Below are positions 17,890 to 27,730 of a DNA stretch of 27,730 bases, in pieces. The DNA is from a virus. The DNA is taken from the UHGV virus genome UHGV-0278671; one strand, written 5' to 3'. The first letter of the stretch is position 1. The number at the start of each line of letters is the position of its first letter. The notes under the pieces were generated by a model. It was not told where the DNA came from. It did no database searches and saw only the letters and a list, made by a program, of their open reading frames with translations. The position numbers and the translations under genes were made by a program.

Positions 17890-18606
17890 ATGGAAAATAA
17901 AAAATCACTGACGACAGAACAGCTCGAAGACGCTAAGCGGCTTAAGGCTTTGTATGAGTCAAAAAAGAAAGAATTGGGGATAACCCAATACTCAATCGCT
18001 GATGAACTGGGTATCACCCAAGGAGCGGTAGGGCATTATCTTAATGGCAGAAACGCGCTAAACGTTGAGGTTGCATCTGGTTTTGCACGACTGTTGCAAG
18101 TCTCAATTGCTGATTTTAGCCAGTCAATTGCTGCCAAGGTTGCAGAACAGGCAGAAAGCCTTAAGAGCGATGCCAACGTAAGGTATGCAGGGGAATACAG
18201 AGCAGGAAAGAGGTATCCGGTGTTAAGCAGTATCCAGGCTGGCTCGTGGTGTGAAGCATGCGAACCATACACCATTAAAGACATAGATGTTTGGCTTGAG
18301 TCTGACGCGCATATTCAAGGTAATGCGTTCTGGCTTAAAGTGGAAGGTGATTCAATGACGGCACCGGTTGGGTTAAGCATTCCAGAGGGAACATTCGTTC
18401 TTTTCGATACCGGAAGGGAGGCGATCAACGGCAGCTTGGTCATAGCAAAACTTTCTGACTCTAACGAAGCAACATTCAAGAAGCTGATAATCGACGGCGG
18501 AAATAAATACCTTAAGGGACTTAATCCTGCATGGCCTCTCGTGCCAATCAATGGAAACTGCAAGATTATAGGCGTTGCAATTGAGACAAAACTAAGGCTG
18601 GTTTGA
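17890..18606 (+). CDS. cI: CI repressor (HTH plus LexA-like self-cleaving C-terminal domain)
   Basis: N-terminus LTTEQLEDAKRLKALYESKKKELGITQ and HTH; C-terminal FWLKVEGDSMTAP...FKKLI matches lambda CI FWLEVEGNSMTAP...FKKLI (catalytic Ser/Lys context). Confidence 0.9.
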   Translation: MENKKSLTTEQLEDAKRLKALYESKKKELGITQYSIADELGITQGAVGHYLNGRNALNVEVASGFARLLQVSIADFSQSIAAKVAEQAESLKSDANVRYAGEYRAGKRYPVLSSIQAGSWCEACEPYTIKDIDVWLESDAHIQGNAFWLKVEGDSMTAPVGLSIPEGTFVLFDTGREAINGSLVIAKLSDSNEATFKKLIIDGGNKYLKGLNPAWPLVPINGNCKIIGVAIETKLRLV

Positions 18607-18623
18607 TCACGCAAGGGGCGATT

Positions 18624-18992
18624 ATGGTTGGAACCGCTATAGCAAGCTTTTTTGGGATGTTGGCAATCTCGACAATTTACGGCTTAGCGCATGCTTTTAT
18701 TGCGAAATCTCTATCAGAAAAAATAAGCCAGGCTTGGGCGCATAGATCAGCTCGTTTCATGATTCTAGTGATCATAGCAATACAAGGGATATCTGCATTT
18801 ATCCTCTATGGTTCAAGCTTATACCTGTTGTATCAAGGCGCGACATTTACGCCTTACACCAGTGATTACGGAACTCTATACGATGGTAGTGAAGACATCT
18901 CTATGGCTTGGATTGTCTTTGGTTTATCTATGGCCGTGTCTGTTGTAGCAGATATCATTAAGGTAATTCTCGTCTTAACCTTCGCTGACTAA
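18624..18992 (+). CDS. Polytopic inner-membrane protein co-transcribed with cI (rexB/sieB position)
   Basis: AAGGGG 6 nt before ATG 18624, 18 nt after the cI stop; about four hydrophobic helices in 122 aa; no similarity to lambda RexB recognised. Confidence 0.55.
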   Translation: MVGTAIASFFGMLAISTIYGLAHAFIAKSLSEKISQAWAHRSARFMILVIIAIQGISAFILYGSSLYLLYQGATFTPYTSDYGTLYDGSEDISMAWIVFGLSMAVSVVADIIKVILVLTFAD

Positions 18993-19359: not shown

Positions 19360-19632
19360 ATGACAGTAGTCATTACATATCTGGCTGACGATAACACCAG
19401 AAATCGCCGCAGAGCACGCAGACAGGCTCAACGTGAACAGGCAATGCAAGAGCAGCGACTGGCGCGAAAAATTGCGCTAAAGCTCTCTGGTTGCGTCAGA
19501 GCAGACAAAGCAGCATCACTCGGAAGCCTTCGCTGCAAGAAGGCAGATGAATGCAGTGGAAGTATTTGCCTGCCAGAAGTTGCGCTTTTCGCAGCTGGTC
19601 ATCGTACAAGTAAGCAGGTTACAGCGAGGTAA
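19360..19632 (+). CDS. N: N-type antitermination protein
   Basis: Arginine-rich motif NTRNRRRARRQAQREQ near the N-terminus; C-terminus LPEVALFAAGHRTSKQVTAR resembles P22 gp24 as remembered; first gene after pL/nutL. Confidence 0.75.
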   Translation: MTVVITYLADDNTRNRRRARRQAQREQAMQEQRLARKIALKLSGCVRADKAASLGSLRCKKADECSGSICLPEVALFAAGHRTSKQVTAR

Positions 19633-20626: not shown

Positions 20627-20797
20627 ATGCAACAGTTCGCTATTGCAGGGGCGGCATCGGTTCGCCCTTTCAACCCGATTTTATCGGTACAGCATTCACG
20701 AAAAAACATTCTAACCGGAGCAGACTTTAAACAACCAAGAATGAAAAGTTTGCTCGAAAAGCTTTGGGATATTTTGAAACAACAAGGCCGCCCATGA
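20627..20797 (+). CDS. cIII: CIII-like protein (FtsH inhibitor)
   Basis: 56 aa MQQFAIAGAAS...LLEKLWDILKQQGRP resembles lambda CIII (MQYAIAGWPVAG...WKRLIDILNQPG); AAGGAG 6 nt before the ATG. Confidence 0.65.
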   Translation: MQQFAIAGAASVRPFNPILSVQHSRKNILTGADFKQPRMKSLLEKLWDILKQQGRP

Positions 20798-20952
20798 GTT
20801 TTACAGATAACTGGTCAGACGAAGAATTCATTCGTCAGATGAAAGAATTAATCGGTAACGAAGGAGATATTCATGTCACTTGCAACCACAGTGAAGGAGA
20901 GCAAGTTACAGAGACGCATGTACACGCAGAAAGCTCTCTGGTATCGCCATAA
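20794..20952 (+). CDS. Small hypothetical protein (52 aa) at the kil/arf position
   Basis: ATG overlaps the cIII stop (ATGA). Confidence 0.35.
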   Translation: MSFTDNWSDEEFIRQMKELIGNEGDIHVTCNHSEGEQVTETHVHAESSLVSP

Positions 20953-21051
20953 TGGCGACCGCGAAGGAATGCGGGTATGCCTTAATTTGTCCCGAGTCGA
21001 AGTATTAAATCAGCGTTATTTCCTTGGGCCGTGTCCATTCTGAGGTGAATT

Positions 21052-21759
21052 ATGGATTTGAACAAATTCGATGAGCCATTCAGCCCTGAAGATATCGAAT
21101 GGCGAATACAGCAAAGCGGTAAAACACGCGATGGCAAAGTGTGGGCTATGGTGCTGGCTTATGTCACGAACCGGGCAATCATGAAACGCCTGGACGATGT
21201 TTGCGGCAAAGCAGGATGGCGCAATGAATACCGCGATATTCCCAACAACGGCGGCGTTGAATGCGGCATATCAATAAAGATTGATTCCGAATGGGTAACC
21301 AAATGGGATGCTGCTGAAAACACGCAGGTAGAAGCCGTCAAAGGTGGTCGTTCCGGTGCAATGAAGCGCGCTGCCGTTCAGTGGGGAATCGGTCGGTATC
21401 TGTATAACCTTGAGGAAGGTTTCGCACAAACATCTCTCGATAAAAAGCAGGGGTGGCACAGGGCAAAACTCAAGGATGGAACAGGATTTTACTGGCTCCC
21501 TCCATCGCTGCCGGGATGGGCAATCCCAGCATCAGATAACAAACCATCACCAGAAAGTACCAACCAGAAATCTCCATCGGTTGACTGCGAGAAAATCCTG
21601 AAAGACTTCAGCGATTATGCGTCAACAGAAACTGACAAGAAAAAACTCATCGAGCGTTATCAGCGTGACTGGCAATTAATGGCTGGCAATGAGGATGCGC
21701 AGGCTAAATGCGTTCAGGTAATGAACATCAGAGTTAACGAGCTAAAACAGGCGGCATAA
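21052..21759 (+). CDS. Single-strand annealing protein: Rad52/Sak-like N-terminus fused to an Erf-like C-terminal domain
   Basis: N-terminal region resembles Rad52-family annealing proteins; C-terminus YASTETDKKKLIERYQRDWQLMAGNEDAQAKCVQVMNIRVNELKQAA matches the P22 Erf C-terminus as remembered. Confidence 0.75.
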   Translation: MDLNKFDEPFSPEDIEWRIQQSGKTRDGKVWAMVLAYVTNRAIMKRLDDVCGKAGWRNEYRDIPNNGGVECGISIKIDSEWVTKWDAAENTQVEAVKGGRSGAMKRAAVQWGIGRYLYNLEEGFAQTSLDKKQGWHRAKLKDGTGFYWLPPSLPGWAIPASDNKPSPESTNQKSPSVDCEKILKDFSDYASTETDKKKLIERYQRDWQLMAGNEDAQAKCVQVMNIRVNELKQAA

Positions 21760-22233
21760 ATGGCAAGCAGAGGCGTAAATAAGGTGATCATTATTGGTCG
21801 CCTTGGGCATGATCCAGAAATCAGATATTCACCATCAGGAACGGCATTTGCAAACCTTACAGTTGCTACGTCAGAACAATGGCGTGATAAGCAAACTGGA
21901 GAGCAAAAGGAGCAGACGGAGTGGCACCGTGTGGTAATGAGCGGGAAACTGGCAGAAATTGCCAGCGAGTATCTGCGGAAAGGCTCAGAGGTTTATCTTG
22001 AAGGCAAATTGCGGACAAGAAAATGGCAGGATCAAAGTGGACAGGATCGGTTCACTACCGAAGTTATCGTAGGCGTTGGTGGAACCATGCAAATGCTTGG
22101 TGGCAAGCAAGGAGGCAATGAACAGTCTTCACCTCAGCGAAATAACGGTCAGCAACAAAGACAGCAACCTCAGCAGCATGGAAATCACAGCGAACCACCT
22201 ATGAACTTCGACGATTCGGATATTCCGTTCTAG
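21760..22233 (+). CDS. ssb: Single-stranded DNA-binding protein
   Basis: [23 protein letters not shown]...TEWHRVV...LRTRKW... near-identical to E. coli SSB as remembered; acidic tail ending DSDIPF. Confidence 0.9.
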
Positions 22234-22242
22234 GAGCTGAAT

Positions 22243-22722
22243 ATGAAAATCTGCTCAAGATGCCATCAACAGAAGGAAGAAAGGGACTTTCAAATCAGAA
22301 GAGCATCCAGAGATGGATTAACTGCCGCTTGCCGGGCTTGCCTGGCTGAATATGACAAAGAGCGCGCGGGATTGCCACATCGAGTATCAGCAAGGAGAGA
22401 ATATCAATCATCGGAACGCGGCAGAGAACGGTGTAACGCAGCCAAAAAGCGGTTCATTCAGAGCAACCCATGGAAAAGAAAAGCCCACATCATCGTGGGT
22501 AATTTTTTGCGCGACGGTAAGCTAATCCGACCACCACAATGTGAGTGCTGCGGATCAGAATGTAAACCACAGGCGCACCACTGCGACTACAGCAAACCAA
22601 CCGATGTGATGTGGCTCTGCAAGTCATGTCATGTCGAGTGGCACAAACATAACAAACCTATCTACCCAGACGAGGAGCCAGTAACTCTCCCCTTCCCTCG
22701 TCACGCTATTCACGCAATTTAA
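22243..22722 (+). CDS. HNH-family endonuclease-like protein with N-terminal Cys cluster
   Basis: CSRCH...CRAC and C-terminal QAHHCDYSKPTDVMWLCKSCHVEWH fit a zinc-bound HNH motif. Confidence 0.55.
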   Translation: MKICSRCHQQKEERDFQIRRASRDGLTAACRACLAEYDKERAGLPHRVSARREYQSSERGRERCNAAKKRFIQSNPWKRKAHIIVGNFLRDGKLIRPPQCECCGSECKPQAHHCDYSKPTDVMWLCKSCHVEWHKHNKPIYPDEEPVTLPFPRHAIHAI

Positions 22723-22730
22723 GGACTTAC

Positions 22731-23279
22731 ATGAATCACTTGATGGTTGACCTTGAAACAATGGGCAACGGGCCATACGCGCCAGTTATTTCTATTGGGG
22801 CGGTATTCTTTGACCCGAATACCGGAGAAACAGGAGAAGAGTTCTCGGTAAATATCTCGCTTGAGTCATCAATGCGATATCGGGCGCGTCCTGACGCTTC
22901 AACGATTTTATGGTGGCTGGAACAGAGTGAAGAAGCCAGAAAATCGCTAACCAGCAACATTCAGGAGCTTTCAACGGCTCTTTCATGGTTATCTGAATTC
23001 ATCATAAAGAACGCTAACCACAAATTCGTTCAGGTTTGGGGGAATGGAGCATCATTTGACTGCGTTATTCTCCGAAACAGTTATTCGCTGACAGGGCAGC
23101 CAGTTCCATGGCAGTGGTGGAATGACCGCGACGTAAGAACAATCGTCGAGCTTGGAAAGGTAATAGGATTCGACCCTAAGCGAGATATGCCATTCAAAGG
23201 AACTCGCCACAACGCTCTTGATGATGCCATTCACCAAGCCAAATACGTTTCAGCGATCTGGAAAAAGTTAGCTAAATAA
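22731..23279 (+). CDS. DnaQ-like 3'-5' exonuclease
   Basis: DEDDh-type motifs: MVDLET (Exo I), FDCVILRN (Exo II-like), HNALDDA (Exo III). Confidence 0.65.
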   Translation: MNHLMVDLETMGNGPYAPVISIGAVFFDPNTGETGEEFSVNISLESSMRYRARPDASTILWWLEQSEEARKSLTSNIQELSTALSWLSEFIIKNANHKFVQVWGNGASFDCVILRNSYSLTGQPVPWQWWNDRDVRTIVELGKVIGFDPKRDMPFKGTRHNALDDAIHQAKYVSAIWKKLAK

Positions 23280-23295
23280 TCAACAGGAGAAAACC

Positions 23296-23589
23296 ATGCC
23301 AGCGCCTCTGTATGGTGCGGATGACGCGCGCCGCTGTTCCGGCAATTCCGTATCGGAGGTGCTGGATAAATTCAGAAAAAACTACGATCGGATAATGTCG
23401 CTACCGCAGGAAACGAAAGAGGAAAAGGAATTTCGCCACTGTATATGGCTTGCAGAGAAAGAAGAACGCGAGCGAATTTACCAGACATCAATCCGACCAT
23501 TCCGCAAAGCCACATATACCCACTTCCCTGAAATTGACCCGCGCCTGCGTAATTACCGCTCACGCTATGGTGCTATCAGTAATGACTGA
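23296..23589 (+). CDS. Hypothetical protein (97 aa)
   Basis: AGGAG before the ATG; no recognised motifs. Confidence 0.45.
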
Positions 23590-23599
23590 GGAATTTACC

Positions 23600-23767
23600 A
23601 TGAGAGGACTTGCATACAATCCCGGCATTCTTCCGGCAGAAATGATTATTCGCCAACGCGTAAAGCCAATGCCATCGAGAGAGGAATTGCTTAAGAGAAA
23701 TAGTTTCGGTTCTGTTAATGACAACAAATATCTGAATGCAATGTGGCGCAAAGGAGGCAAGCAGTGA
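23600..23767 (+). CDS. Small hypothetical protein (55 aa)
   Basis: GAGGA 8 nt before ATG 23600; stop overlaps the next gene's GTG start. Confidence 0.3.
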
Positions 23768-24354
23768 GCAACATCGACAAACAGGCGCAGCGTAAAGCAA
23801 AGGTAATCACAAAGGAATTTGTTGAGGAACACCTTCACTACGATGGGAAGGATTTTTTCTGGAAGAAGCGCGAACCAAGTTCGTTTTCTGACAGCCGCAC
23901 ATGCAAGGTTTGGAATACTCGAATTGCAGGGAAGCGGGCCGGAGGAATCAGCGCTCAAGGTTATGTAGAAATTCAAATCAAAGGGAGTCGATATAAGGCT
24001 CATAGATTAGCGTGGTGTCTTGTTCATGGCGATATACCAACAGACATGCAGGTTGATCACATTAACCACGACCGAACTGATAACCGAATAGAGAATCTGC
24101 GCCTTGTTGATAATCAGGGAAACCAAAAGAACTCTTCGATACGAAAGGACAACATTGGAGGCTGCACAGGTGTTACCTGGAATCCTAGCCATAAAAGATG
24201 GATTGCCTACATACGCGAAAATGGTAAGCACAAGCACATTGGTAGCTTCATTAAATTCTCTGATGCTGTAAGAGCAAGAGAGGAAGCTCAGGCAAGGCTT
24301 GGATTCCACATGAATCACGGCGCCGCTGGCATTCGCATCAAAGGAGGTGAGTAA
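23764..24354 (+). CDS. HNH homing-endonuclease-like protein with C-terminal AP2-type DNA-binding domain
   Basis: [36 protein letters not shown] (HNH motif); C-terminal [27 protein letters not shown] (AP2-like); AAGGAGG 6 nt before GTG 23764. Confidence 0.65.
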
Positions 24355-26379: not shown

Positions 26380-26571
26380 ATGACCGATACCAGCCTGATT
26401 CCTGAGAAAGAAGTGATGAACAAGCTCGGTGTTTCATCACGTCAGACAATCTGGAACTATACCAAACGGCACGGATTTCCGAAGCCAGTCAGAACCCACC
26501 CCAAATCATACCTTCGTGAAGCTGTTGAGGGGTGGATTCTTAACGGTGGCGTTAATCAGAAATGCTCCTGA
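26380..26571 (+). CDS. alpA: AlpA-family regulator/excisionase
   Basis: 63 aa with HTH KEVMNKLGVSSRQTIWNYTKRHGFPKP typical of the AlpA/Xis family; GGAG before the ATG. Confidence 0.65.
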   Translation: MTDTSLIPEKEVMNKLGVSSRQTIWNYTKRHGFPKPVRTHPKSYLREAVEGWILNGGVNQKCS

Positions 26572-27730
26572 TGTGCCAGAACAATTTATCAGCGTGAAGC
26601 TCATACGCTTTGCGCTGAGCCTCTATCCAGTCGTGTTTATTGTATACGGACATTATCCCGCCAAGTTCATGACCGAGCATTCGCTCAGTAACATGAGGCT
26701 CGACATTCATCTCGGACAGACGTGTAACAAGCGTTCTTCTGAAATCGTGTGTTCGCCAGTAACCTAGATCCATCCCTCCCCTTATTCTATTTACGAATCG
26801 GTTGGCTGCAGCGATGCTGATCGGTTTGTTTATGTCTTCTCCAGGGAAAAGAACATCATTGTACGTTGTCATGGCCTTTTCGAGGAAAGGCTTAATTTGT
26901 TCGAAGATTGGACGGCGGATAACATTACCCATCTTGCTATGCTCTTTCGGTACGGTCCATACGTTTTCCAGCAGGTCAAATTCTGTCTTTTTTGCCAGCC
27001 TAAGCTCTGAGAGCCTCGCCCCCCACAGCATAAGCATCTGATGAAGTAGCTTATTTGACGTAGACGCACGGCTTCTTTCAATAGCAAGCCAAATCTTAGC
27101 CAGTTCGTGATACGACAGTACCCGATCCCCTACCTCAGCGCGGGAGCCGAAGTCCCTTGGTTGGATGCTCATAATTGCGCAACTATCTATCAACTGACGC
27201 CGCATGCACCAACTTATTGCTGATCTTAGTTGACTTAGCACCTGCCTTGCTCGGCGTGGATTATCTTTTTCTTCTTCGGTAAGCAGGTCAACCCATTGCT
27301 TAACCGTGATAGAAGATGCCGGACGATTAGGAAAGGCGTCATGCATGCGCTTCATAACCGTTGATCGGTAAAGTGCCTGGGTCTTTTCTCTGAGAGTTGT
27401 AGAGACGTAGTTGTCGAACCAGTAGTCGAGACACTGGGCGACCGTCATGGAGTTCTCCACCTTCTCTTCAAAATAAGTGCGTGGATCCGTTCCTGAGAAA
27501 TAGAGCTTTCGCAAGTCAGCAGTGATCTGTCTGGCATCCTTCAAAGACAGGGATGGGTATCGACCAAGCCCAAGTCGATTAGGCTTGCCATGCCAGCGAT
27601 AGCGGTACTGGAACTGGATGACCCCCTTCGGTGAAATTCGTACGCTGAGGCCATCGGCATCAGCCACTTCTTGTGGGCCCGAATATGGTTTACCATAAAT
27701 AGTACGCAGTTTTGTGTCGCTTATAGCCAT
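26552..27730 (-). CDS. int: Tyrosine-type site-specific integrase (P4-like arm-binding N-terminus)
   Basis: 392 aa; N-terminal LRTIYGKPYSGPQEVADADGLSVRISPKGVIQFQYRYRWHGK; C-terminal catalytic residues in HDFRRT...LGHE...YNKHDW; start codon is the last three bases of the window. Confidence 0.9.
   Translation of the reverse strand: MAISDTKLRTIYGKPYSGPQEVADADGLSVRISPKGVIQFQYRYRWHGKPNRLGLGRYPSLSLKDARQITADLRKLYFSGTDPRTYFEEKVENSMTVAQCLDYWFDNYVSTTLREKTQALYRSTVMKRMHDAFPNRPASSITVKQWVDLLTEEEKDNPRRARQVLSQLRSAISWCMRRQLIDSCAIMSIQPRDFGSRAEVGDRVLSYHELAKIWLAIERSRASTSNKLLHQMLMLWGARLSELRLAKKTEFDLLENVWTVPKEHSKMGNVIRRPIFEQIKPFLEKAMTTYNDVLFPGEDINKPISIAAANRFVNRIRGGMDLGYWRTHDFRRTLVTRLSEMNVEPHVTERMLGHELGGIMSVYNKHDWIEAQRKAYELHADKLFWHIRSISD

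What the first reader, a model, noticed from the sequence alone, without database searches (positions are those of the whole stretch)
21052..21759. Chimeric annealing protein: Rad52/Sak-like core with Erf-type C-terminal tail
The N-terminal domain looks Rad52-like while the last ~50 residues match the P22 Erf C-terminus. This illustrates domain shuffling among phage recombinases. It sits with SSB and a DnaQ-like exonuclease rather than a lambda Exo-type partner.
Basis: partly seen in the sequence, partly recalled or inferred. Interest (0 to 1): 0.4.

Follow-up and report, generated by a model that had tools for sequence, protein, structure and literature searches.

The report
Known Rad52-core annealase with Erf tail
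This phage gene encodes a DNA-annealing protein whose working core is of the Rad52/Sak type and whose last ~57 residues are the same small helical domain found at the end of phage P22 Erf; the hybrid is real but common, and it was described in phage genome papers years ago.

Summary
ORF 21052-21759 (235 aa) has a Rad52_Rad22 core (Pfam E=5e-26). The core is 59% identical to the characterised Sak of Lactococcus phage ul36. It is followed by a disordered linker and a confident three-helix C-terminal domain. That domain is 63% identical over 79 aligned residues to the C-terminus of P22 Erf (E=1e-30). P22 Erf and Sak share no detectable similarity, and Pfam's ERF model stops before the tail.

The same protein (92-99% identity) occurs in phages mEp235, ES18 and epsilon34 (Sf6 gp28 and ST64T Orf-235 are the same type). 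The five-gene module occurs in 105 of 5,426 complete E. coli genomes. The epsilon34 (2008) and phage L (2020) genome papers already describe this Erf 'domain swap'. The SAP-SSB-DnaQ-like exonuclease-Abc2 neighbourhood is the published 'ES18-type' Rec module.

The tail travels with an abutting ssb gene and an upstream arf gene (66 of 80 loci each), rarely with abc2 (4 of 80). It shows no detectable relationship to the Redbeta C-terminal domain. Its function, most likely partner docking and probably to SSB, is inferred only.

The parts
21052..21759 (+). Single-strand annealing protein gene (235 aa plus stop): a Rad52/Sak-core, Erf-tail hybrid of the ES18 gp49 / epsilon34 gp36 / Sf6 gp28 / mEp235_032 type
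   Evidence: ORF. It is 98.7% identical to the mEp235 protein and 92% identical to those of ES18 and epsilon34. phrog_1097 matches full length, E=1e-129.
21052..21531 (+). Residues 1-160: Rad52-type ssDNA-annealing core
   Evidence: PF04098 covers residues 4-136, E=5e-26. 59% identity to ul36 Sak. The AF2 core has pLDDT mostly 82-94, with dips in residue blocks 61-70 and 81-100. The top 16 Foldseek PDB hits are human RAD52 or yeast Mgm101, probability 0.90-1.00.
21532..21585 (+). Residues 161-178: Pro/Ser/Asn-rich disordered linker, which contains the intragenic mosaic junction
   Evidence: pLDDT is below 50 for residues 162-175. Length and sequence are hypervariable among homologs (alignment A2). 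Core similarity to Sak ends at residue 159, and tail similarity to P22 Erf begins at residue 157 at protein level and at nt 21607 at DNA level.
21586..21756 (+). Residues 179-235: three-helix C-terminal domain shared with P22 Erf (the 'tail')
   Evidence: Helices 179-192, 196-209 and 214-234. The tail-only AF2 model has pLDDT 93.6. 75% identity to the P22 Erf tail. No Pfam or NCBIfam family. L183, F186 and R227 are invariant among 33 Rad52-core homologs.
21607..21759 (+). Stretch with nucleotide-level homology to the 3' end of P22 erf
   Evidence: blastn gives 81% over 153 nt, ending at the stop codon. The next P22 homology is at abc2, 23286-23742.
20873..21043 (+). 56-aa ORF in the position occupied by arf in P22 (Sf6 gp29 / mEp235_033 family); not a detectable Arf
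   Evidence: It is 82% identical to mEp235_033. A relative sits immediately upstream of the annealing gene in 6 of the 80 related loci.
21760..22233 (+). Phage SSB ending in the canonical acidic tip ...NFDDSDIPF; its start codon abuts the annealing gene's stop (TAAATG)
   Evidence: PF00436, E=2e-38. Junction sequence and C-terminus. The same zero-spacer arrangement occurs in 66 of 80 related loci.
22243..22722 (+). 159-aa Zn-ribbon/HNH-like endonuclease ORF inserted between ssb and the exonuclease gene
   Evidence: phrog_2340 'endonuclease', E=3e-47. Absent from mEp235 and epsilon34. Left unannotated in E. coli E4.
22731..23279 (+). DEDDh (DnaQ-superfamily) 3'-5' exonuclease
   Evidence: PF16473, E=1e-72. 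89% identical to epsilon34 gp34.
23296..23589 (+). Abc2 anti-RecBCD protein
   Evidence: PF11043, E=6e-63, and phrog_656. 85% nucleotide identity to P22 abc2.

Best explanation
The gene encodes the strand-annealing protein of a P22-like/lambdoid E. coli phage recombination module of the 'ES18 type': annealing protein, SSB, nuclease(s) and Abc2.

The protein has two domains. The first is an N-terminal Rad52/Sak-type core, which by homology forms oligomeric rings that bind ssDNA and anneal complementary strands. After a flexible linker of about 18 residues comes the second domain, a 57-residue three-helix bundle that is the same domain found at the C-terminus of P22 Erf.

The hybrid arose by recombination within or next to the linker, and this exchange has happened repeatedly. 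Two distinct tail subtypes are each found on both ERF-type and Rad52-type cores in phages of Enterobacterales.

The tail's role is inferred, not shown. Its most likely role is as a docking module that couples whichever annealing core it carries to a partner in the infected cell. The best candidate is the acidic C-terminal tip of SSB, either host SSB or the phage SSB encoded immediately downstream. Docking there would give the annealase access to SSB-coated ssDNA.

The confidence of 0.8 applies to the identity, architecture and repeated-exchange parts. The SSB-docking step alone is about 0.4.
For: SHOWN
- Domain boundaries and dual homology.
- Rad52 fold of the core.
- Disordered linker and confident three-helix tail.
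- A DNA-level mosaic junction inside the gene, with the other junction at the stop codon.
- The tail occurs on ERF cores (P22, S9-5, RCIP0034, EhrS_49, IME1369_01) and on Rad52 cores (this window, Yersinia 06.16-1).
- In 80 viral contigs with the divergent 'KCKDVTGIR' tail subtype, 56 have a Rad52 core and 24 an ERF core, with no third type.
- Tail and core histories disagree. The P22 tail is 93% identical to the ES18 (Rad52-core) tail but only 42% to the tail of S9-5, whose ERF core is 88% identical to P22's. The EhrS_49 (ERF) tail is 75% identical to the P0099 (Rad52) tail.
- Emek equals the P22 module with only the core replaced.

INFERRED (tail function)
- Every named source among the listed full-length (core-plus-tail) homologs is in Enterobacterales. 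The same Rad52 core has unrelated C-termini in Lactococcus and Vibrio phages. This fits a host-specific adaptor.
- An ssb gene starts one nucleotide after the stop codon in 66 of 80 loci, on both core types. The window's SSB ends in ...DDSDIPF.
- No single phage-encoded partner is universal. Arf is adjacent in 66 of 80 loci and Abc2 is present in 4 of 80. P22 and Emek have no phage SSB. That points towards a host factor with a conserved tip.
- Precedents: the Redbeta CTD binds lambda Exo and the SSB C-tail, and this is required in vivo (review PMC11611040). Sak4 stimulation requires the last six residues of its SSB (PMC5928155).
- Published statements that Erf has two domains and that the swap fits that structure (PMC2629481, PMC8022706).
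Against: - Nothing here tests binding.
- The tail shows no detectable relationship to the one annealase C-terminal domain known to bind SSB. Foldseek finds no PDB hit at E<=0.001 and no Redbeta or Orf chain among the 50 rows shown. hmmsearch against PDB sequences finds none at E<=10. hhalign against lambda Beta gives probability 0.3%.
- ssb adjacency is typical of annealase genes in general, including ones without this tail. About 80% of Firmicutes erf genes are next to ssb (PMC8093625), and ul36 sak is followed by ssb. The adjacency is therefore not specific to the tail.
- Arf co-occurs just as often as SSB.
- The 80 loci are phylogenetically redundant (60 distinct proteins from two or three lineages), so the counts are not independent.
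Confidence: 0.8

Rival explanations
1. The tail docks Arf, the small 'accessory recombination function' protein encoded just upstream of erf in P22, or an analogous small upstream protein, rather than SSB.
For: A true Pfam Phage_Arf gene (RCIP41-type, 52 bits against a 27-bit cutoff) overlaps the start of the annealing gene by 4 nt in 66 of 80 tail-bearing loci. It is there on both core types: 47 of 56 Rad52 and 19 of 24 ERF. It is also present in P22, Emek and RCIP0034. Arf is known genetically to assist Erf-dependent recombination, with molecular function unknown (PMC12315714).
Against: This window, mEp235, ES18 and epsilon34 carry the tail but have no detectable Arf. They have a different 56-62-aa ORF instead. 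Yersinia 06.16-1, Morganella IME1369_01 and S9-5 also lack it. No control was run on whether Arf also accompanies annealases that lack the tail.
Confidence: 0.2
2. The tail couples the annealase to the Abc1/Abc2-modified RecBCD enzyme, playing the role that the Redbeta CTD plays towards lambda Exo.
For: P22, Emek, this window, ES18, epsilon34 and mEp235 all encode Abc2 close to the tail-bearing gene. Abc2 is reported to convert RecBCD into the resecting nuclease that prepares ends for recombination (PMC5928155).
Against: Only 4 of 80 loci with the second tail subtype have Abc2 within 3.6 kb downstream, and none has a P22-type Abc1. The published classification lists EhrS_49-type modules as annealase only. 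HK620 has Abc2 with a Sak4 annealase.
Confidence: 0.07
3. The tail has no external partner. It either modulates the protein's own oligomerisation or DNA binding, or it persists mainly as a conserved patch of homology that promotes module exchange between lambdoid phages.
For: The generic helical bundle has no specific structural relatives. One mosaic junction coincides with the gene's 3' end, and nucleotide homology is confined to the tail. This is how conserved 'linker' homologies behave in mosaic phages. C-terminal tails of other Rad52-type proteins such as Mgm101 act in ssDNA binding and ring stability (abstract of PMC3655812).
Against: The tail is conserved at protein level down to 35-45% identity, with invariant L183, F186 and R227. 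That indicates selection on the protein, not just on the DNA. The domain is separated from the core by a long disordered linker, as is typical of tethered interaction modules.
Confidence: 0.15
4. The gene is not chimeric: it is a single-family protein and the Erf resemblance is compositional or due to chance.
For: PHROGs places the full length in one family labelled 'Erf-like'. All Rad52/Erf/Redbeta annealases are thought to be distantly related (PMC2896510).
Against: E=1e-30 for the tail alone, with 81% nucleotide identity. There is no similarity between P22 Erf and the core, or between Erf and Sak. Pfam assigns the two cores to different families. The PHROG family is simply the cluster of these same hybrids.
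Confidence: 0.01

Closest known systems
ES18 gp49 / epsilon34 gp36 / ST64T Orf-235 / Sf6 gp28 / mEp235_032 (the 'Erf' of many P22-like and lambdoid phages)
   Same: It is the same protein. Identity is 98.7% to the mEp235 protein and 92% to those of ES18 and epsilon34, at the same length and architecture, with an abutting ssb gene and abc2 downstream.
   Different: The window's module carries an extra HNH-like ORF between ssb and the exonuclease, so it holds both an HNH-type and a DnaQ-type nuclease.
Sak (ORF252) of Lactococcus phage ul36, the characterised bacteriophage Rad52 homolog
   Same: The annealing core: 59% identity over 155 residues, the same Pfam family, and an ssb gene immediately downstream.
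   Different: Sak's C-terminal ~88 residues are unrelated to the window's tail. The host is Gram-positive.
P22 Erf (essential recombination function)
   Same: The C-terminal three-helix domain (63-75% identity), the two-domain layout with a linker, and the position in the early-left operon upstream of abc2.
   Different: The N-terminal annealing domain belongs to a different Pfam family (ERF, PF04404) with no detectable similarity. P22 has arf upstream and abc1 downstream, and no phage ssb or nuclease.
Lambda Redbeta (annealing core plus C-terminal partner-binding domain)
   Same: The general logic: a Rad52-superfamily annealing core tethered to a small helical C-terminal domain. In Redbeta that domain binds the exonuclease and the host SSB tail.
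   Different: There is no detectable sequence, profile or Foldseek relationship between the two C-terminal domains. The partner nuclease here is not lambda Exo.

Membership tests
Rad52/Rad22 (Sak) annealase family, Pfam PF04098 | Family HMM match above the curated threshold | tested here: met
   91.9 bits against a 20.3-bit cutoff, residues 4-136.
Rad52/Rad22 (Sak) annealase family, Pfam PF04098 | Close similarity to an experimentally characterised member | tested here: met
   59% identity and E=1e-66 to ul36 Sak/ORF252.
Rad52/Rad22 (Sak) annealase family, Pfam PF04098 | Rad52 N-terminal-domain fold | tested here: met
   The top 16 Foldseek PDB hits of the AF2 model are human RAD52 or yeast Mgm101, probability 0.90-1.00. 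E-values are only about 1e-3 and TM-scores are low (0.22-0.44).
Rad52/Rad22 (Sak) annealase family, Pfam PF04098 | Ring oligomer, ssDNA binding and strand annealing | not testable with these tools
   This needs biochemistry or EM. It is inferred from homology to Sak.
ERF family, Pfam PF04404 | Family HMM match or similarity to the P22 Erf N-terminal DNA-binding domain | tested here: not met
   No ERF hit at E<=1. BLASTP to P22 Erf aligns only residues 157-235. The ERF model covers Erf residues 5-146.
ERF family, Pfam PF04404 | P22 Erf-type C-terminal domain (not part of the family model) | tested here: met
   63% identity over 79 residues, E=1e-30. 75% over the folded 56 residues.
Redbeta-CTD / lambda Orf-like partner-binding domain | Sequence or profile similarity to the Redbeta C-terminal domain | tested here: not met
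   hhalign probability 0.3%. No Redbeta or Orf chain at E<=10 in the PDB sequence search.
Redbeta-CTD / lambda Orf-like partner-binding domain | Specific fold similarity | tested here: inconclusive
Redbeta-CTD / lambda Orf-like partner-binding domain | Binds the exonuclease partner and the SSB C-tail | not testable with these tools
Lambdoid 'ES18-type' Rec module (Zheng et al. 2025) | Contiguous early-left-operon genes for an annealing protein, SSB, a nuclease (DnaQ-like or HNH) and an anti-RecBCD protein | tested here: met
   The SAP, SSB, HNH-like, DEDDh exonuclease and Abc2 genes are contiguous at 21052-23589, downstream of the cI-like repressor and an N-like gene.

The most novel reading that the evidence does not exclude
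The 57-residue tail is a portable docking module restricted to phages of Enterobacterales. It is structurally unrelated to the Redbeta C-terminal domain, and it sets in vivo partner specificity (the SSB tip, Arf or another factor) independently of which annealing core it is attached to. If so, transplanting it could re-target heterologous annealases for recombineering in enteric bacteria.
Probability: 0.35. Interest if true: 0.45.

Novelty: already known. Interest (0 to 1): 0.18.

Why it matters
As it stands, this is a correct reading of an ordinary and widely distributed phage gene. It is useful for annotation: databases call the same protein 'Erf-like', 'Rad52/Rad22 family', 'recombinase' or 'hypothetical'.

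The part still open in the literature is what the shared C-terminal domain does. The 2025 survey of lambdoid Rec modules says that 'shuffling of partner interaction domains' probably explains module promiscuity, but it left that analysis out of scope. A defined partner for this tail would help explain how unrelated annealases plug into the same host. It could also guide the engineering of recombineering proteins.

Tried and rejected
1. The search for homologous proteins with the 70-aa tail alone returned only 12 short fragments, so it gave no information on N-terminal cores.

2. The exhaustive phmmer search with the tail against 1.8 billion representatives gave only 16 hits at E<=0.001. Almost all were fragments, frameshifted copies or deletion fusions, and none showed a new core type.

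3. The search for related loci with the full tail alignment failed because the alignment was too diverse. It worked with one subtype.

4. The idea that the tail is a Redbeta-CTD / lambda Orf-like domain, suggested by PMC8093625, was rejected on present evidence.

6. The idea that the window's upstream 56-aa ORF is Arf was rejected: no Pfam hit and no BLAST similarity.

7. The idea that Abc2 always accompanies the tail was rejected: 4 of 80 loci.

8. NCBIfam has no model for the protein, the tail or the neighbours tested.

9. The ES18 genome paper and the Sak structure paper (Ploquin 2008) could not be read because they are not held. The Sf6 paper was not looked up. The earliest description of the swap was therefore not verified first-hand; it is cited only through the epsilon34 paper.

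Full report
WHAT IS THERE

The window is a mosaic P22-like/lambdoid E. coli phage or prophage. No phage record covers more than 41% of it, and the best matches are Sf6-, CUS-3- and HK620-like phages. A cI-like repressor gene at 17890-18606 and an N-like antiterminator gene at 19360-19632 head a rightward-reading (in window orientation) early-left operon.

The finding's ORF is exactly as described: 21052-21759, + strand, ATG start, 235 aa. It is followed by four genes:
- ssb at 21760-22233, with the stop and start codons abutting as TAAATG;
- an HNH-like ORF at 22243-22722;
- a DEDDh 3'-5' exonuclease gene at 22731-23279;
- abc2 at 23296-23589.

IS IT CHIMERIC?

Yes.
- Pfam places Rad52_Rad22 on residues 4-136 (E=5e-26) and finds no ERF domain even at E<=1.
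- Residues 6-159 are 59% identical (E=1e-66) to Sak/ORF252 of Lactococcus phage ul36, the characterised phage Rad52 homolog.
- Residues 157-235 are 63% identical (E=1e-30) to residues 134-205 of P22 Erf.
- P22 Erf and Sak have no detectable similarity to each other.
- Pfam's ERF model ends at Erf residue 146, so the shared tail belongs to no Pfam family. NCBIfam has nothing either.
- At nucleotide level, homology to P22 is confined to 21607-21759 (81% over 153 nt). It ends at the stop codon and resumes only at abc2. One mosaic junction therefore lies inside the gene and the other at its 3' boundary.

STRUCTURE

An AlphaFold2 model built on 33 homologs has three parts:
- a core at residues 1-160, with pLDDT mostly 82-94;
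- a disordered linker at 162-175, pLDDT about 40;
- three helices at 179-192, 196-209 and 214-234.

The tail modelled alone has pLDDT 93.6. The full model's top 16 PDB matches are human RAD52 and yeast Mgm101, probability 0.90-1.00. The tail matches only generic helical bundles.

IS IT NEW?

No.
- The protein is 98.7% identical to mEp235_032 and 92% identical to ES18 gp49 and epsilon34 gp36. Sf6 and ST64T carry the same type.
- Full-length homologs down to 56% identity occur across Enterobacterales.
- The whole five-gene module is at least 80% covered in 105 of 5,426 complete E. coli genomes, where PGAP calls the gene 'Rad52/Rad22 family DNA repair protein'.
[quoted passage not shown] - The phage L paper repeats the point (PMC8022706).
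- The SSB, DnaQ-like/HNH nuclease and Abc2 context is the 'ES18-type' Rec module in the 2025 survey of 325 lambdoid phages. That survey also remarks that partner-interaction domains are probably shuffled, but leaves the analysis out of scope (PMC12315714).
- A 2021 study of Firmicutes annealases likewise noted C-terminal domain sharing between annealase families (PMC8093625).

(a) The tail occurs on both core types.
- ERF cores: P22, S9-5, RCIP0034, EhrS_49 and IME1369_01. Rad52 cores: this window and Yersinia 06.16-1.
- In 80 viral contigs carrying a divergent 'KCKDVTGIR' tail subtype, 56 cores are Rad52-type and 24 ERF-type, with no third type.

(b) Tail and core histories disagree.
- The P22 (ERF) tail is 93% identical to the ES18 (Rad52) tail.
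- It is only 42% identical to the tail of S9-5, although the two ERF cores are 88% identical.
- The EhrS_49 (ERF) tail is 75% identical to the tail of the Rad52-core protein P0099. P0099's own tail is only 46% identical to the window's, although their cores are 75% identical.
- At least two tail subtypes therefore each sit on both cores, which implies repeated exchange at the linker.
- Phage Emek shows the minimal event: P22's kil-arf-erf-abc1-abc2 with only the erf core replaced.

(c) Neighbours in the 80 loci (60 distinct proteins).
- An ssb gene starts one nucleotide after the stop codon in 66.
- A true Pfam Arf gene overlaps the start codon in 66.
- Both associations hold on both core types.
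- Abc2 is present within 3.6 kb downstream in only 4.

(d) The tail is not detectably related to the Redbeta C-terminal domain: hhalign probability 0.3%, and no PDB sequence or Foldseek hit.

HOW IT MOST LIKELY WORKS

Shown or strongly supported:
- It is a Rad52-type annealing core, assigned by homology to Sak.
- A separately folded C-terminal domain is tethered to it by a flexible linker.
- That domain is under protein-level selection: L183, F186 and R227 are invariant across 33 homologs.

Inferred:
- The tail is a docking module.
- No phage-encoded candidate partner is universal. Arf is absent here and in ES18, epsilon34 and mEp235. A phage SSB is absent in P22 and Emek. Abc2 is absent in most loci.
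- Every named source among the listed full-length homologs is in Enterobacterales. The same core carries unrelated C-termini in Lactococcus and Vibrio phages.
- This points to a conserved host-type feature. The best candidate is the acidic SSB tip. The phage SSB here retains it (...DDSDIPF).
- There are precedents: the Redbeta CTD with SSB, and Sak4 with its SSB tail.

I put about 0.4 on SSB, 0.2 on Arf or an analogous small protein, under 0.1 on Abc/RecBCD, and 0.15 on an intramolecular or purely evolutionary 'linker' role.

The main weaknesses are these. ssb adjacency is common for annealases in general. The 80 loci are redundant. No binding was tested.

VERDICT

The feature is already known and common, so interest is low (0.18). 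The residual open question is the partner and function of the shared tail.

Noticed in passing
window 22243-22722 (+); compare L091:3209-3715 (epsilon34 ssb) and L092:2975-3471: A 159-aa Zn-ribbon/HNH-like ORF (phrog_2340 'endonuclease', E=3e-47; no Pfam hit) sits between ssb and the exonuclease gene, and mEp235 and epsilon34 lack it. PGAP leaves the same ~500-nt stretch unannotated in E. coli E4. Its last residues (...PVTLPFPRHAIHAI) equal the last residues of epsilon34 SSB (...DFDDDIPFAPVTLPFPRHAIHAI). In phages lacking this gene, the SSB reading frame therefore runs 15 codons past the canonical ...IPF tip. That looks like an insertion/deletion scar, and it would bury the terminal Phe that SSB partners normally bind.
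   Followed up: partly
window 20764-20952 (+), overlapping 20873-21043 (+): From an internal Met, the 62-aa ORF reads MSFTDNWSDEEFIRQMKELIG.... This resembles the N-terminus of Arf (P22 MQHEFSDEEFIALISPEIEEE; RCIP0034 ...WNDDEFIQLMSDAIGERD). It lacks Arf's conserved C-terminal AERQNPxIxWDEFAG and gets no Pfam Arf hit. It may be an arf remnant partly overwritten by the 56-aa Sf6-gp29-type ORF.
   Followed up: partly
window 21261-21408: This stretch has 73.6% nucleotide identity over 148 nt to the sak gene of Lactococcus phage ul36. That is unusually high for genes of phages of Gram-negative and Gram-positive hosts, and it suggests relatively recent horizontal transfer of the core.
   Followed up: no
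window ~21676-21753 (tail helix 3, residues ~209-234): A profile of the tail gives a marginal match (E=0.003, 27 residues) to the receptor-binding coiled-coil region of colicins E2, E3 and E9 (colicin ...QERQAKAVQVYNSRKSELDAA; the window's tail reads ...EDAQAKCVQVMNIRVNELKQAA). It is probably compositional, but both occur on enterobacterial mobile elements.
   Followed up: no
window 23743-24354 (+): A GTG-initiated 203-aa HNH_3 plus AP2-like endonuclease ORF lies just downstream of abc2 and the DUF2737-position gene. It resembles the epsilon34 gene 31 arrangement, which was described as an eaE-HNH homing-endonuclease fusion. With the HNH-like ORF at 22243-22722, the operon holds two homing-endonuclease-like genes around the Rec module.
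   Followed up: no
protein P0001, from a 42-kb contig: A 106-aa protein joins a lambda-N-like arginine-rich N-terminus (Pfam PF11438) directly to the linker and tail. It appears to be a deletion derivative that removed everything from the N gene to the annealase core in some prophage.
   Followed up: no
window 18603-18992 (+): A TTG-initiated 129-aa predicted membrane protein overlaps the stop codon of the cI-like repressor gene and has no Pfam hit. Its position suggests a prophage-expressed exclusion or defence gene co-transcribed with the repressor, as rexAB and sieB are.
   Followed up: no
window 26552-27730 (-): The integrase gene (Arm-DNA-bind_3 plus Phage_integrase) is on the strand opposite to the early-left operon, and its start codon coincides with the window's end. 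It may belong to this prophage in an unusual orientation, or to an adjacent element.
   Followed up: no
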